A DNA stretch of 45,582 bases from a virus. The stretch lies in the IMG/VR virus record IMGVR_UViG_3300017991_000164; one strand, written 5' to 3'. This document shows positions 42,828 to 45,582 of the stretch, one piece after another. Positions within the stretch are counted from its first letter, which is position 1. Each line of letters starts with the position of its first letter. Under the pieces are notes generated by a model that saw nothing but the letters and a program-made list of their open reading frames with translations, was not told the origin of the DNA and made no database searches. The position numbers and the translations under genes were made by a program.

Positions 42828-43385
42828 TCACTTTCCACCAAAGATGCCAGTGCCACCCTCACCAGGTTTAGGAATCCCAGGAACACCGAAGAGTCCCGCA
42901 CCGAGGAGAGTACCACCAAGACCGAAGAGTTGTGACCCAAGCCCAGGAGTTGAGTAAGCCTGCGGCTGGACCCCAGTCCTCGTAGGCTGCAGCCCAATCC
43001 CAAGAGCACCAAGCTGTTGCTGCCTTGCACTCATCAGGTCTGCGAGCTGCATCTGTGCAAGTTGGGCCGTAGCATTGGAATAGACATCTCCAAGGGCCCT
43101 TGCCAACACCGTTGATTTGCGAGAGCTAAGGCCTCCATGTCTAGAAAATCCAGCCTCGATCATCGGAGAGATGTCTTGCTCAAAAGACCTTAGAGAGGGT
43201 TGAAGGACACTACCCTTCCAATATTTCTTGATATCCTCTGGACTCGGCTCAAAAGCCCCCTCCCCGCCAAGAGACTCGTAGAGACGCTCCGCCAGTCGAG
43301 ATTGAAGCCTTCCCTGTTTACCAGAGAGAAGGCTCAAGACTCTTGGATCAACCGTCTTAACATCCGGTTCGAAGAAGTCGCCCAT
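42828..43385 (-). CDS. Hypothetical virion protein with Gly-rich C-terminus, 185 aa
   Basis: ORF 42828..43424. The ATG at 43385 is preceded by the canonical AAAGGAG SD. Confidence 0.5.
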   Translation of the reverse strand: MGDFFEPDVKTVDPRVLSLLSGKQGRLQSRLAERLYESLGGEGAFEPSPEDIKKYWKGSVLQPSLRSFEQDISPMIEAGFSRHGGLSSRKSTVLARALGDVYSNATAQLAQMQLADLMSARQQQLGALGIGLQPTRTGVQPQAYSTPGLGSQLFGLGGTLLGAGLFGVPGIPKPGEGGTGIFGGK

Positions 43386-43842
43386 TGAGGGATCTCCTTT
43401 GTACTTTGTCGAAAAGGTCGTCATCGACCAGATTGAGCTTCACGACAGAAGCAATGGTTTTGAAACGATACTTTCTGTAGAGTGCATCCGTATCTCTCAT
43501 CGTCCTTGCACGAATGTACTTCTTTCTGAGACCCTTCGCCCACACGATGATTTCCGAAAGGAAGCGGTCTCCAAGGTGGGGGTAGTCTGGATAGCCTATC
43601 CATGCTTGGGATAGCTCCACAAAGGGAAAGTAACGTCCGGGGTTACGAGAGGTTGTTGAGCCGATTAGTTTGCCATCTTCATCCCTCGCAACAAGGATCT
43701 GAATTGAATCAGGGTTGGTCAAGATAGTGTGGAGGACTTCCTGAAGAAATGGTTCACGCAGACTTCCGTCAGAGAAAACCCAATGAGGGACGAGAGCTTC
43801 AATTGTCTCAGCGTCCCAGATTCTGTCAATCGTTAACTCCAT
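43357..43842 (-). CDS. GNAT-like acetyltransferase candidate, 161 aa
   Basis: ILVARDEDGKLIG and IIVWAKGLRKKYIRARTMRDTDALYRKYRF resemble the GNAT beta4/alpha3 and C-terminal LY-x-K-x-GF segments. It overlaps the upstream stop by 10 nt. Confidence 0.4.
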   Translation of the reverse strand: MELTIDRIWDAETIEALVPHWVFSDGSLREPFLQEVLHTILTNPDSIQILVARDEDGKLIGSTTSRNPGRYFPFVELSQAWIGYPDYPHLGDRFLSEIIVWAKGLRKKYIRARTMRDTDALYRKYRFKTIASVVKLNLVDDDLFDKVQRRSLNGRLLRTGC

Positions 43843-44468
43843 ATCAATTCTCCATTTCTGTTAAGCGACCATCCAAAGTACCTTAAGTTGATTAATCTAC
43901 ACTTATCATCCTTCAATACCTGATCCCAATCCTCATCACGCTTCATAAGCCTCCATCGGCTCAGAAGGCGATCTGGCTCTACAGTCGAATCGCCAAAACT
44001 AGATCCGACCCAAGCTAGTGAAGGAAGTCTCTCATGATGAGACCACCCATACTTCCATTCAACCTTGAGGAGATAGTAAGGATCTATAAGCCACTTGTCG
44101 TAGAAGATCGTTGCATTCTCAATGTAGTAGGGCCAAAGCTCAATCTGATCACTCCAGTCAGGGGTTCCTCTTCTCTGGTCCCTACAGTAACAAATCTTGG
44201 ATGCCATCATGTTGTAGAAACTACGACAGACTACAACTCGTTGACCTGGGGTGTCTGGAATCTCGGTTTTGTTCTCAAAGGTGATGATCTCCTTACCCTC
44301 AGGGGGGATATCTGGAAGATCCTTTGATGGTAGATAGTTGTTGTGATGGACTGAACCAGGAAACCTAGCCCCAATCCAATCTACAATTGCGTGGTTTCCA
44401 CTTCGGGTGAGGCCATAAACCCAAATCATCTCTCGAAGGCGTTCAGTTGGAAGGTCGTCTATCTTCAT
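43833..44468 (-). CDS. Sulfotransferase-like protein candidate, 211 aa
   Basis: GLTRSGNHAI resembles a 5'-PSB loop (xRSGS/T). VVCRSFYNMMAS resembles a 3'-PB segment (R-x3-N/D-x3-S). ATGA coupling to the GT gene. Confidence 0.4.
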   Translation of the reverse strand: MKIDDLPTERLREMIWVYGLTRSGNHAIVDWIGARFPGSVHHNNYLPSKDLPDIPPEGKEIITFENKTEIPDTPGQRVVVCRSFYNMMASKICYCRDQRRGTPDWSDQIELWPYYIENATIFYDKWLIDPYYLLKVEWKYGWSHHERLPSLAWVGSSFGDSTVEPDRLLSRWRLMKRDEDWDQVLKDDKCRLINLRYFGWSLNRNGELIWS

Positions 44469-45424
44469 TTCTTTGATGCCCTCAAATCAAAGATTCTCTG
44501 AACATCCTCCCTTTGCTCCTTCAAGGTTGGAAGTCTGAACCCACAGAGGGACTCTAGTTCGTCATCCCCATATCGTCGGTTACTTTGGATCTTGGCACGA
44601 AAGGTTTTGATGTCCTCAAACTCCTTCTCAAACCTTTCCAGAGCCTTGAGAGGACTTAGCTGCTTGAGGAAGGGATGATAGATTTTCTCGAAAACCCCAT
44701 CCTCAAAAAGGGAATAAGTCATAACCAGTTGGTTGAAAGAGGCCTCCCAACTGTTCATGAAGTATCCCCTCATATCACGATCAAACCGATGACCGACGAT
44801 TACCTCGTTGATCCGACGAACTTGGAAACCACTCAACCAAGACCGGAGTGAAAGATCCTGTTCTTCAAACCCCCATCCATAAAGGTTCGGATTCCACCCT
44901 CCAAGTTCTCTCCAGATAGGACGAGGAATGATGTAGCAAGCTCCAAGAACGCATGGGATGATTTCAACTTGTGTAATCGGTCCCCTAGGTAACCAACTTA
45001 TTCCGATGGCAAAAGAGTCTCCTCGACGTGCAAAAGAAGCTCCTCCAAGGAGTTGTCTTTGGTTGTGAAGCTCAAACCCTGAACAGGCACAACAGAAGAT
45101 TGAGTAAGGATGATTCTCAGCCGCTAGCTTGATTGGCCCAAGCCATCCCTGAGGCATTCTCATATGAGCGTCCAAGACGATCACCAAATCACCAGAAGAA
45201 CGAGTTACCCCAAATCTCTTTGCGGGTCCAGCTCCTAGCCTTTCAGGAGTCCGAACAACATTTACGCCTGGAAAGGAACCGAGTCGATCCGCGATAGGTT
45301 CATCTGAACAATCATCAACGACAATAATTTCATAAGGTTCCGGGTTCGATGAATAGGCGTGAGCAACTGTGGTAAGAAGATCACGACCCTCGTTATAAGC
45401 TGCAATCACAATTGAAACATTCAT
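44465..45424 (-). CDS. GT-A glycosyltransferase (GT2 clan) with polypeptide GalNAc-transferase-like motifs, 319 aa
   Basis: Motifs VSIVIAAYNE, EIIVVDDCSD, VIVLDAHMRMPQGWLGPI (DxH) and GWGFEEQDLSLRSWLSGFQV...VIVGHRF (Gal/GalNAc-T-motif-like). Confidence 0.75.
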   Translation of the reverse strand: MNVSIVIAAYNEGRDLLTTVAHAYSSNPEPYEIIVVDDCSDEPIADRLGSFPGVNVVRTPERLGAGPAKRFGVTRSSGDLVIVLDAHMRMPQGWLGPIKLAAENHPYSIFCCACSGFELHNQRQLLGGASFARRGDSFAIGISWLPRGPITQVEIIPCVLGACYIIPRPIWRELGGWNPNLYGWGFEEQDLSLRSWLSGFQVRRINEVIVGHRFDRDMRGYFMNSWEASFNQLVMTYSLFEDGVFEKIYHPFLKQLSPLKALERFEKEFEDIKTFRAKIQSNRRYGDDELESLCGFRLPTLKEQREDVQRIFDLRASKK

Positions 45425-45582
45425 TTAGAAGAGTCCTCCAGGATCACCACCCATCGGGCCGGGTCCAGGAACAGATGGGCTAATAGATGCACTAGTTGTC
45501 GGAGCAGTTACAAGAGTTCCTGTAGTAGTTCCAGTTGTCGCGGCTGTTGTTGTAGTTGTCGCGGCTGTTGTTGTAGTTGTCG
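45425..45582 (-). CDS. Poly-threonine (mucin-like) protein, C-terminal part of the junction-spanning gene
   Basis: Hand translation of the minus strand: ...TTTTTAATTTTTAATTGTTTGTLVTAPTTSASISPSVPGPGPMGGDPGGLF followed by TAA (45427-45425). The stop abuts the ATG of the GT gene. Nt 45533-45582 duplicate nt 1-50. Confidence 0.65.
   Translation of the reverse strand, partial: TTTTTAATTTTTAATTGTTTGTLVTAPTTSASISPSVPGPGPMGGDPGGLF

What the first reader, a model, noticed from the sequence alone, without database searches (positions are those of the whole stretch)
43357..45582. Candidate phage-encoded mucin-type O-glycosylation cassette: poly-Thr protein + ppGalNAc-T-like GT + sulfotransferase-like + GNAT-like genes inside the virion operon
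Seen in sequence:
- A small minus-strand ORF wraps the contig junction (45425..45582 continuing into 159..1).
- It encodes MSLVRSNWFFIGG, 29 consecutive Thr, (AATTTTT) repeats and a Thr/Ser/Pro/Gly tail. As assembled, 43 of 88 residues are Thr.
- It is ATGA-coupled to the tail genes upstream, and its TAA abuts the ATG of a 319-aa GT-A enzyme.
- That enzyme carries VSIVIAAYNE, VVDDCSD, LDAHMRM (DxH) and WGFEEQDLSLRSW...VGHRF.
- The next two coupled ORFs carry sulfotransferase-like (RSGNHAI, RSFYNMMAS) and GNAT-like segments.

Established knowledge: a DxH motif together with a WGGEN-E-x-S-x-R-x-W...VGH-x-FR (Gal/GalNAc-T) motif typifies the polypeptide GalNAc-transferases (CAZy GT27). These enzymes initiate mucin-type O-glycosylation on Thr/Ser-rich tracts.

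Inference: the substrate and its modifying enzymes are encoded side by side in the structural operon. The virion may therefore display a glycosylated, possibly sulfated or acetylated, mucin-like filament. I am not aware of a described phage system of this kind.
Basis: partly seen in the sequence, partly recalled or inferred. Interest (0 to 1): 0.9.

Follow-up and report, generated by a model that had tools for sequence, protein, structure and literature searches.

The report
Phage poly-threonine protein plus dedicated glycosyltransferase
An uncultured phage encodes, inside its tail-gene operon, a tiny protein that is half threonine followed directly by an enzyme whose closest relatives are the animal and protist enzymes that start mucin-type sugar coats; the same pairing recurs in at least 13 other phage lineages, so phages probably build their own mucin-like glycoprotein.

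Summary
The window is a circular contig with a 50-bp terminal duplication. Once that is removed, the wrap-around minus-strand ORF is 88 aa with 43 Thr (81 aa in an independent assembly, differing by an in-frame 21-nt repeat unit). It overlaps the upstream tail-module ORF (ATGA), and its TAA abuts the ATG of a 319-aa glycosyltransferase.

By sequence, family profile and predicted structure, that enzyme matches only polypeptide GalNAc-transferases across its full length. The DxH motif, the C-terminal metal His and the Gal/GalNAc-T motif are invariant. It has no lectin domain and no membrane anchor, so it fits the GT27/GT60 "polypeptide alpha-HexNAc-transferase" clade, possibly closer to GT60.

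All close homologues sit in siphovirus tail modules. In 8 of 13 lineages the ORF directly upstream carries a strongly Thr-rich tail, with up to 77 consecutive Thr. In one lineage that domain, a Thr-rich linker and the GT form a single polypeptide.

The 211-aa ORF belongs to an undescribed family with a sulfotransferase-like fold and motifs, found in glycan gene clusters (moderate support). I found no evidence for the GNAT claim on the 161-aa ORF. Virion display and actual glycosylation remain inferred. Phage virion glycosylation has a precedent in mycobacteriophages, but not with this enzyme clade or with a dedicated acceptor gene.

The parts
156..719 (-). Upstream ORF of the tail module (187 aa from TTG; called as 174 aa in the ENA assembly). 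Its TGA stop (158-156) overlaps the ATG of the poly-Thr ORF.
   Evidence: No Pfam, PHROG or NCBIfam hit. Not homologous to the FYGG domain of relatives (hhalign probability 0.4%).
1..159 (-). 5' part of the poly-Thr ORF: ATG 159-157, MSLVRSNWFFIGG, then 29 consecutive Thr and the first AATTTTT repeats. It continues across the circular junction.
   Evidence: The N-terminal SLVRS..NWFFIG segment aligns with the last strand (hLhDxS..GxWxhxC) of the FYGG domain found upstream of the GT in relatives.
45425..45582 (-). 3' part of the poly-Thr ORF (Thr/Ser/Pro/Gly tail, stop TAA 45427-45425). Positions 45533-45582 duplicate 1-50 (assembly overlap) and must be counted once. GGAGG at 45439-45435 is the likely ribosome-binding site of the GT.
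   Evidence: In-frame 21-nt length difference in the independent assembly L091. TRF array.
44465..45424 (-). 319-aa soluble GT-A glycosyltransferase of the GT27/GT60 (polypeptide alpha-HexNAc-transferase) clade. Key residues: D37-D38, D85-x-H87, W184-G185..E188..D190..S192..W196, H212. No lectin domain and no membrane anchor.
   Evidence: Pfam Glycos_transf_2 1.5e-22 plus Glyco_transf_7C 25.2 bits (cut-off 23). PDB sequence hits. AF2 model pLDDT 92.9. Foldseek top 50 hits all ppGalNAc-T. Invariant columns.
43833..44468 (-). 211-aa ORF, start overlapping the GT stop. Member of an undescribed family with a sulfotransferase-like fold. Key residues: RSGNHA loop after strand 15-19; invariant E65; invariant R82 and S90, 8 residues apart.
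   Evidence: 111 remote homologues by exhaustive phmmer. Invariant columns. AF2 model pLDDT 91.1. Foldseek best hits are sulfotransferases, E 2.6e-3, TM 0.54, followed by P-loop kinases. Homologues sit in glycan and natural-product clusters, one near an APS kinase gene. No Pfam or PDB sequence hit.
43357..43842 (-). 161-aa ORF of unknown function, overlapping the 211-aa ORF by 10 nt. An ORFan.
   Evidence: It matches only itself among 5.8 billion protein clusters. No hit in Pfam, PHROGs, NCBIfam or PDB.

Best explanation
This is a phage-encoded protein O-glycosylation module: a dedicated acceptor gene followed by its enzyme.

Proposed mechanism:
1. The poly-Thr ORF and the GT are made together from the late (virion) operon. 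This step is shown by the overlapping or abutting stop/start codons and by the GT's Shine-Dalgarno sequence lying inside the acceptor ORF.
2. The GT is a soluble, cytoplasmic GT-A enzyme of the GT27/GT60 clade. It is probably retaining and metal-dependent, as that clade is, using DxH plus a C-terminal His. It is inferred to transfer a HexNAc (GlcNAc or GalNAc) from a UDP-sugar onto the Thr hydroxyls of the extended Thr tract, giving a densely O-glycosylated, mucin-like peptide.
3. The next enzyme (211 aa) is inferred to be a PAPS-dependent sulfotransferase that tailors the sugars. In siphovirus relatives the tailoring role appears to be taken by a methyltransferase-like domain fused to the GT.
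4. The 161-aa ORF has no assignable role.

In the siphovirus relatives the acceptor is a ~110-aa globular 'FYGG' domain followed by a Thr-rich tail. It is encoded between the distal-tail protein (DUF2460) and the tail hub. In one lineage a second FYGG domain is fused to the distal-tail protein itself. The glycosylated tail therefore most likely projects from the tail tip.

The phage in this window is podovirus-like, with an SU10-type adaptor and no tail-tube or tape-measure gene detected among the ORFs scanned. It appears to have acquired the module with only the last strand of the FYGG domain plus the Thr tail. How, or whether, its peptide is attached to the virion is open.
For: GT identity:
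-. Only ppGalNAc-Ts match across the full length.
- D85xH87, H212 and the Gal/GalNAc-T motif are invariant in 19 homologues.
- DxH is confined to GT27 and GT60, and both families O-glycosylate polypeptide Ser/Thr (PMC7185993).

Pairing of enzyme and acceptor:
- All six GT homologues looked up by protein (36-56% identity overall) lie in the order DUF2460 -> small ORF -> GT -> gp84/BR0599 hub.
- The small ORF ends in a Thr-rich tract: L006 T5+T10, L093 T7/T4/T4/T4/T7, L092, L004, L022 PTTTE repeats with 34% Thr, L020 77 consecutive Thr.
- 8 of 13 lineages have at least 9 Thr in a 20-aa window, against 2 of 173 background ORFs in the same loci (Fisher 2e-9).
- The Thr tracts cannot be aligned with one another, so composition rather than sequence is conserved.
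- L024 encodes FYGG domain + Thr-rich linker + GT as a single ORF.
- The poly-Thr ORF is the only Thr/Ser-rich product of a plausible gene in the whole window.
- Thr strongly outnumbers Ser (43 to 6). GalNAc-Ts are known to prefer Thr (my own knowledge).

Reality of the ORF.

Tail-tip location: the synteny above, plus the distal-tail protein/FYGG fusion in L024 (BLASTP 2e-7).

Sulfotransferase-like enzyme.

Methyltransferase-like extensions on GT homologues.
Against: - There is no biochemical or proteomic evidence. Acceptor and donor cannot be read from sequence.
- The residue aligned with GalNAc-T2 E334 (E187 here) varies within the phage family, so donor handling may differ from GT27.
- Thr-rich tracts can also be plain flexible linkers. 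The L024 fusion can be read as 'anchor-linker-enzyme' rather than 'substrate-enzyme'.
- Lineages L001, L013 and L095 have only weak Thr enrichment.
- The 13 lineages share ancestry, so the Fisher test overstates independence.
- In this window the acceptor ORF lacks the globular domain and was not called by the gene caller of the ENA assembly. It could be a vestige.
- The sulfotransferase assignment rests on weak Foldseek E-values (2.6e-3 to 0.2) and on motif logic. No Pfam sulfotransferase model matches the 211-aa ORF, and only 1 of 50 family members matches one weakly (Sulfotransfer_3, E 0.099).
Confidence: 0.6

Rival explanations
1. The GT acts on something else (another virion protein, a host envelope glycan or lipid carrier, or a small molecule). 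The Thr-rich tract is only a flexible or spacer tail of a tail-tip accessory protein that happens to be the neighbouring gene.
For: Phage GT2-type enzymes are most often annotated as O-antigen conversion functions; there is a weak PHROG hit to GtrB-like phrog_841, 1.9e-6, N-terminal 91 residues only. The best NCBIfam hit is the mycofactocin glycosyltransferase MftF, 6.8e-11, far below its cut-off. Some lineages have little Thr enrichment.
Against: Full-length similarity is to polypeptide-glycosylating enzymes only. The enzyme has no membrane segment and is not in a lysogenic-conversion context; it sits inside tail modules. Thr enrichment is specific to the adjacent ORF. In one lineage the Thr-rich protein and the enzyme are fused. 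No other Thr/Ser-rich protein is encoded in this genome.
Confidence: 0.17
2. In this particular phage the poly-Thr ORF is a non-functional remnant of the FYGG-Thr gene, carried along when the GT was acquired horizontally from a siphovirus. It is not made, or it has no role. The GT and its two downstream ORFs then act as an unrelated accessory cassette.
For: Only the last strand of the globular domain is left. The gene caller of the ENA assembly skipped the ORF. All three frames are open across the low-complexity stretch. The Thr codon usage (ACA/ACT) differs from that of the genome's structural genes (ACC most frequent).
Against: The ORF keeps an ATG placed exactly on the upstream stop (ATGA) and ends exactly at the GT start, with the GT's SD inside it. 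The one length variant seen is in frame. The tract has expanded to 29 consecutive Thr with mixed synonymous codons rather than decaying.
Confidence: 0.15
3. The poly-Thr ORF is an assembly artefact, or non-coding simple repeat at the contig junction.
For: The contig was circularised inside the repeat, and repeat copy number differs between assemblies.
Against: The region is internal to, and otherwise identical in, an independent assembly. The repeat is imperfect. Homologous positions in 13 other lineages encode Thr-rich tails.
Confidence: 0.03

Closest known systems
Polypeptide N-acetylgalactosaminyltransferases (CAZy GT27; e.g. human GalNAc-T2/T10/T12, Toxoplasma GalNAc-T3)
   Same: GT-A catalytic domain. 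DxH metal motif, C-terminal His ligand and Gal/GalNAc-T (Glyco_transf_7C) motif. Best and only full-length sequence and structure matches. Expected acceptor is a dense Thr-rich tract.
   Different: About 20-23% identity. No ricin-type lectin domain, no type-II membrane anchor or stem, cytoplasmic, encoded by a phage. The E334-equivalent position is not conserved. Donor sugar is unknown.
Polypeptide alpha-GlcNAc-transferases (CAZy GT60; Dictyostelium and Trypanosoma cruzi mucin-type initiation, Skp1 GlcNAc-transferase)
   Same: DxH motif. No lectin domain. Some members are soluble and cytoplasmic. The family is reported in prokaryotes and protists. Polypeptide Ser/Thr O-glycosylation (PMC8724618, PMC7185993).
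   Different: I could not compare directly: no GT60 reference sequence or structure was reachable with the tools. The held papers I found describe no GT60 member paired with a dedicated Thr-rich acceptor gene in a virus.
Mycobacteriophage virion glycosylation (Che8 and relatives; Freeman et al. 2023, PMID 37329881)
   Same: Phage-encoded glycosyltransferases, often accompanied by a methyltransferase, decorate virion proteins with glycans made in the host cytoplasm (PMC11256854, PMC13313380, PMC12894461).
   Different: Those genes lie near the right genome end rather than in the structural operon, and the glycans are on the major capsid protein (PMC11256854). No detectable homology to this GT (tblastn of all GenBank phages found no match). 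No dedicated low-complexity acceptor gene and no sulfotransferase-like partner are mentioned in the papers I could read; the primary paper is not in the library.
Serine-rich repeat adhesins of Gram-positive bacteria with dedicated GtfA/GtfB glycosyltransferases (my own knowledge, not checked here)
   Same: A low-complexity Ser/Thr-rich protein is encoded beside soluble cytoplasmic enzymes that add GlcNAc to it before it is displayed.
   Different: GtfA/B are GT-B (GT4) enzymes. The substrates are huge cell-wall-anchored adhesins exported by an accessory Sec system. They are bacterial, not viral.

Membership tests
CAZy GT27 (ppGalNAc-T) | GT-A catalytic domain most similar to solved ppGalNAc-T catalytic domains | tested here: met
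   Foldseek top 50 hits are all ppGalNAc-T, E 1.5e-19 to 2.7e-15, TMq 0.64-0.75. Profile search: 15 top PDB sequences are all GT27, 3e-27 to 4.5e-16, covering positions 3-220 or further.
CAZy GT27 (ppGalNAc-T) | DxH metal-binding motif in place of DxD, plus a C-terminal His as third ligand (Asp209/His211/His344 in mouse T1; PMC4202792) | tested here: met
   D85-A-H87 aligns with DSH of GalNAc-T10, and H212 with the VGH His. All three are invariant in 19 homologues.
CAZy GT27 (ppGalNAc-T) | Gal/GalNAc-T motif (WGGE..E.S.R.W; Pfam Glyco_transf_7C) | tested here: met
   Glyco_transf_7C 25.2 bits against a cut-off of 23. W184, G185, E188, D190, S192 and W196 are invariant. The position aligned with T2 E334 is variable.
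CAZy GT27 (ppGalNAc-T) | C-terminal ricin-type lectin domain | tested here: not met
   The protein is 319 aa and ends in helices. No Ricin_B_lectin hit. Homologues carry either nothing or a methyltransferase-like extension.
CAZy GT27 (ppGalNAc-T) | Type-II membrane anchor and stem; Golgi-lumenal enzyme | tested here: not met
   The first beta-strand starts at residue 3. There is no N-terminal extension.
CAZy GT27 (ppGalNAc-T) | UDP-GalNAc:polypeptide Ser/Thr transferase activity | not testable with these tools
   Needs an enzyme assay.
CAZy GT60 (pp-alpha-GlcNAc-T) | DxH motif, catalytic domain related to GT27, no lectin domain; occurs in prokaryotes and protists | tested here: met
   Family description from PMC8724618 and PMC7185993.
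CAZy GT60 (pp-alpha-GlcNAc-T) | Groups with GT60 reference sequences rather than GT27 in a phylogeny | not testable with these tools
   No GT60 reference sequence or solved structure was reachable.
PAPS-dependent sulfotransferases (211-aa ORF) | Overall sulfotransferase fold | tested here: inconclusive
   In the pLDDT-91 model, most of the best-scoring Foldseek hits are sulfotransferases (SULT7A1, 3-OST-3, TPST2, SULT1C2, SULT1A3), but E is only 2.6e-3 to 0.2 and TMq 0.37-0.56. Related P-loop kinases score close behind.
PAPS-dependent sulfotransferases (211-aa ORF) | 5'-phosphosulfate-binding strand-loop-helix, and 3'-phosphate-binding Arg...Ser | tested here: inconclusive
   Strand 15-19, RSGNHA loop and helix 25-33 are present. 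R82 and S90 are invariant with 8-residue spacing, and E65 is invariant. Equating these with the PSB/PB residues of SULT and TPST rests on my own knowledge; no residue-level superposition was done.
PAPS-dependent sulfotransferases (211-aa ORF) | Match to a curated sulfotransferase sequence family | tested here: not met
   No Pfam, NCBIfam or PDB sequence hit. One of 50 homologues hits Sulfotransfer_3 at E 0.099.
GNAT acetyltransferases (161-aa ORF) | Match to GNAT sequence families or the GNAT fold | tested here: not met
   No hit in Pfam (E up to 1), NCBIfam (E up to 5) or PDB (E up to 10). No homologue exists to build a profile from.
Mycobacteriophage-type virion glycosylation system | Homologous glycosyltransferases; glycans shown on capsid subunits | tested here: not met
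   tblastn of the GT against 50,697 GenBank phage records gave no match at 1e-5. Glycan attachment is not testable here.

The most novel reading that the evidence does not exclude
A widespread, uncultured group of aquatic phages assembles a genuine mucin-like glycoprotein at the tail tip. A gene-encoded poly-Thr acceptor is densely O-HexNAc-ylated by a GT27/GT60-clade enzyme and then tailored: sulfated in this phage, methylated in relatives. The glycan brush would take part in host or particle adhesion, or shield the tail tip. As a corollary, polypeptide-directed 'mucin-type' initiation enzymes with dedicated acceptors would exist in prokaryotic viruses, which bears on the origin of the eukaryotic GT27/GT60 pathway.
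Probability: 0.35. Interest if true: 0.9.

Novelty: new variant of a known kind. Interest (0 to 1): 0.78.

Why it matters
Phage virions were long regarded as unglycosylated; the mycobacteriophage case (2023) is the exception named in the papers I read. This finding points to a second, unrelated and apparently widespread route. [quoted passage not shown]

If confirmed, it would provide:
- a compact, soluble, lectin-free polypeptide HexNAc-transferase with a natural minimal substrate, useful for glyco-engineering in bacteria;
- a candidate new sulfotransferase family;
- a new kind of tail-tip decoration to consider in phage adsorption, stability and environmental adhesion;
- prokaryotic-virus data for the evolutionary history of GT27/GT60.

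The hypothesis can be tested directly by co-expressing two small genes.

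Tried and rejected
- Programmed -1 frameshift fusing the upstream 187-aa ORF to the poly-Thr ORF. The frames differ by -1, but the 45-nt overlap zone holds no X XXY YYZ heptamer in the upstream frame (read). Rejected as unsupported.
- The 187-aa ORF as a diverged FYGG domain. hhalign probability 0.4%. Rejected.
- N-terminal 'FFIGG' of the window ORF as the N-terminal FYGG motif of relatives. MAFFT instead aligns it with the last strand of the domain. The similarity of the C-terminal Gly-rich end to L092 is explained by the embedded GGAGG ribosome-binding site.
- TAG recoding as the reason for the in-frame TAG in the large virion protein. TAG ends 9 of 38 presumed genes. 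Rejected.
- Close relatives of the phage or of the cassette. The GT as a single protein, the 696-aa tail protein and the sulfotransferase-like family found nothing in IMG/VR. The GT and the 696-aa protein found nothing in GenBank phages. TerL is at most 26% identical to any GenBank phage. I therefore could not test whether the cassette is an insertion relative to sister phages.
- The FYGG domain against PHROGs and PDB. No meaningful hit.
- BFVD viral structure library with the GT model. Only generic GT-A hits, TM at most 0.66.
- Promoter and terminator scan. Nothing above shuffled expectation.
- The Freeman 2023 paper could not be read. Its content is taken from papers that cite it.

Full report
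**1. The observation**

The window is a circularly assembled contig. Bases 1-50 equal 45533-45582. Joining the two ends as given shifts the frame. Removing the duplicate gives a 45,532-bp circle and one minus-strand ORF:
- ATG at 159-157;
- stop TAA at 45427-45425;
- 88 aa, 43 Thr, 6 Ser;
- sequence MSLVRSNWFFIGG, 29 consecutive Thr, AATTTTT repeats, then a Thr/Ser/Pro/Gly tail.

An independent ENA assembly (locus L091) has the region in the interior of the contig. It matches the window exactly in every 200-nt block tested except the one holding the repeat, where one 21-nt unit is missing. The ORF stays in frame at 81 aa.

The Thr codons are mixed and the repeat is imperfect.

There is an ATGA overlap with the upstream ORF, and TAA|ATG abuts the GT. 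In addition, a GGAGG sequence for the GT lies inside the last codons of the poly-Thr ORF. The following ORFs overlap one another, and no promoter- or terminator-like signal exceeds chance.

**2. Genome context**

PHROG hits identify, on the minus strand:
- small and large terminase, portal, major head protein, a tail protein and a 696-aa virion structural protein;
- an SU10-type adaptor, from the Pfam family listed for that gene in the ENA assembly.

Next come the 187-aa ORF, the poly-Thr ORF, the GT, and the 211-, 161-, 198-, 359-, 428- and 1320-aa ORFs. The plus strand carries replication genes. No tail-tube or tape-measure gene turned up among the ORFs I scanned, so the phage is podovirus-like. 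It has no close cultured relative: TerL is at most 26% identical to any GenBank phage.

**3. The glycosyltransferase**

- Pfam: Glycos_transf_2 (1.5e-22) plus Glyco_transf_7C (25.2 bits, above the cut-off of 23).
- PDB sequence search: the top 15 sequences are all polypeptide GalNAc-transferases, with GalNAc-T10 best at 9e-19. LDAHMRM aligns on the DSH motif, WGFEEQDLSLRSW on WGGEQYEISFKVW, and VGH on VGH.
- Family: about 20 metagenomic homologues at 38-56% identity. In their alignment D37, D38, D85, H87, R89, W184, G185, E188, D190, S192, W196 and H212 are invariant.
- Family profile against PDB: 15 GT27 sequences at 3e-27 to 4.5e-16, covering both halves of the enzyme. The next hits (dolichol-phosphate mannose synthase 4e-12, heparosan synthase, chondroitin synthase) cover only the first ~100 residues.
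- Structure: the AF2 model has pLDDT 92.9. All of its top 50 Foldseek PDB hits are ppGalNAc-Ts, TM 0.64-0.75.
- Other libraries: viral predicted structures give only generic GT-A hits. GenBank phages hold no homologue.

The enzyme has no lectin domain and no membrane anchor. The literature states three relevant points. The DxD-to-DxH change is confined to GT27 and GT60. Both families O-glycosylate polypeptide Ser/Thr. GT60 lacks the lectin domain and occurs in prokaryotes and protists (PMC7185993, PMC8724618). I therefore place the enzyme in the GT27/GT60 clade. I cannot decide between the two families, or between GalNAc and GlcNAc.

**4. The decisive comparative result**

All six homologues I looked up by protein sit in siphovirus tail modules of the GTA/phiJL001 type. 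The gene order is tape measure, DUF2460 distal-tail protein, a 150-250-aa ORF, the GT, gp84/BR0599 hub, then the Phage-tail_3 protein.

The small ORF has three parts:
- a conserved N-terminus, M..S.E.FYGG;
- a ~110-aa globular domain ending in hLhDxS..GxWxhxC;
- a low-complexity tail, usually Thr-rich.

| Locus | Thr-rich tail |
|---|---|
| L006 | ATTTYTTTTTAPTTTTTTTTTTSEPTTTPSSSGPPI |
| L093 | Runs of T7, T4, T4, T4 and T7 separated by Gly |
| L092 (closest GT, 56% identity) | SGTTTGSTTGETTTTTTF |
| L022 | PTTTE repeats, 34% Thr |
| L020 | 77 consecutive Thr, followed by a Cys-rich domain |

In 8 of 13 lineages the ORF has at least 9 Thr in a 20-aa window. Only 2 of 173 other ORFs in the same loci reach that level (Fisher 2e-9). 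The lineages are related, so this figure measures retention rather than independent origin. The tracts themselves cannot be aligned with one another.

In L024 the FYGG domain, a Thr-rich linker and the GT form one polypeptide. The neighbouring DUF2460 protein carries a second FYGG domain at its C-terminus.

In the window itself, the poly-Thr ORF is the only Thr/Ser-rich product of a plausible gene. Its N-terminal SLVRS..NWFFIG aligns with the last strand of the FYGG domain. It therefore looks like a truncated homologue acquired together with the GT.

**5. The 211-aa ORF**

- The word-indexed search found only the protein itself. The exhaustive phmmer search found 111 remote homologues.
- The family consensus is RRSGNHA ... 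E ... LRDxYNxxASR ... GSSF ... RW. E65, R82 and S90 are invariant.
- No Pfam, NCBIfam or PDB sequence match was found.
- The AF2 model has pLDDT 91.1. RSGNHA forms a strand-loop-helix, and R82/S90 sit at a strand-helix junction.
- Most of the best-scoring Foldseek hits are sulfotransferases (SULT7A1 at 2.6e-3; also 3-OST-3, TPST2, SULT1C2), with P-loop kinases interleaved and close behind.
- Contexts of homologues: a glycan cluster with GT47-like, NodZ/FUT8-like and TylF-like methyltransferase genes; immediately after an EryCIII-like glycosyltransferase, with an APS kinase gene about 2 kb away; and an NDP-sugar cluster.

I rate 'sulfotransferase acting on a sugar' at about 0.6.

**6. The 161-aa ORF**

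This ORF has no homologue anywhere and no family or structure match. The GNAT suggestion is untested at fold level and unsupported at sequence level.

**7. Mechanism**

- Shown: operon coupling; the GT's clade and catalytic residues; conserved adjacency of a Thr-rich ORF, and its fusion to the GT in one lineage.
- Inferred: the GT adds HexNAc to the Thr tract in the cytoplasm; the 211-aa enzyme sulfates the glycan; the product sits at the tail tip.

Several GT homologues carry a C-terminal Methyltransf_24-like extension, with E 3e-4 to 5e-3 (below the Pfam threshold) but spanning the full profile. Two members of the 211-aa family are also fused to Methyltransf_24. This fits alternative tailoring of the same glycan.

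**8. What is known**

Phage-encoded virion glycosylation is established for mycobacteriophage Che8 and its relatives. There the glycans are on the capsid, the glycosyltransferase genes lie near the right genome end, and a methyltransferase is often associated (Freeman et al. 2023, as cited in PMC11256854, PMC13313380 and PMC12894461).

My full-text searches found no description of a GT27/GT60-type enzyme with a dedicated Thr-rich acceptor in phages.

**9. Verdict**

The finding is real, more than chance, and its core interpretation is supported. Caveats are the GT27-versus-GT60 assignment, the unknown donor sugar, the unsupported GNAT claim, and the unproven virion display. I classify it as a new variant of a known kind (phage virion-protein glycosylation), with high interest (0.78).

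Noticed in passing
window 1-50 and 45533-45582: A 50-bp terminal direct repeat from circular assembly lies inside the 21-nt coding repeat of the poly-Thr ORF. Repeat copy number (88-aa or 81-aa product) differs between two assemblies.
   Followed up: yes
window 40460-40462 (minus strand), between ORFs 40460-41746 and 36353-40315: A single in-frame TAG separates the 428-aa and 1320-aa ORFs. The ENA assembly of the same phage lists one 1797-aa gene there. TAG is otherwise a normal stop in this genome (9 of 38 genes). Either a polymorphism or a read-through; not resolved, because the fetched locus ends before the site.
   Followed up: partly
window 36353-40315 (minus strand) and 26122-26583 (plus strand): The giant late protein has a sigma-70 region-4-like stretch (PHROG 36/1740 hits; Pfam Sigma70_r4 weak). 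A separate 153-aa ORF in the early/replication block is sigma-factor-like (1.4e-12).
   Followed up: no
P0003, P0007, P0011, P0017; L020 4315-5751: Several GT homologues carry a ~150-aa C-terminal extension with sub-threshold but full-length Methyltransf_24 matches. This suggests a glycosyltransferase-methyltransferase fusion.
   Followed up: partly
L020 3255-4160 (also L021, L023): The FYGG-domain protein has 77 consecutive Thr followed by a ~100-aa Cys-rich C-terminal domain. A second small Cys-rich ORF lies between it and the GT.
   Followed up: no
L024 3417-5987: The DUF2460 distal-tail protein has a C-terminal FYGG domain. The next ORF fuses an FYGG domain, a Thr-rich linker and the GT in one polypeptide.
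   Followed up: partly
L095 4763-8203: The Phage-tail_3 'host specificity' protein of this relative carries a PT-HINT (intein-like) domain, according to the precomputed Pfam hits.
   Followed up: no
P0032-P0141 (homologues of window 43833-44468): The 211-aa ORF defines a family of at least 111 representative clusters with no Pfam model. Members occur in glycan and natural-product gene clusters.
   Followed up: partly
window 30078-31352 (plus strand): A 424-aa ORF combines ParB-like nuclease and DNA methyltransferase PHROG hits (a ParB-MTase fusion).
   Followed up: no
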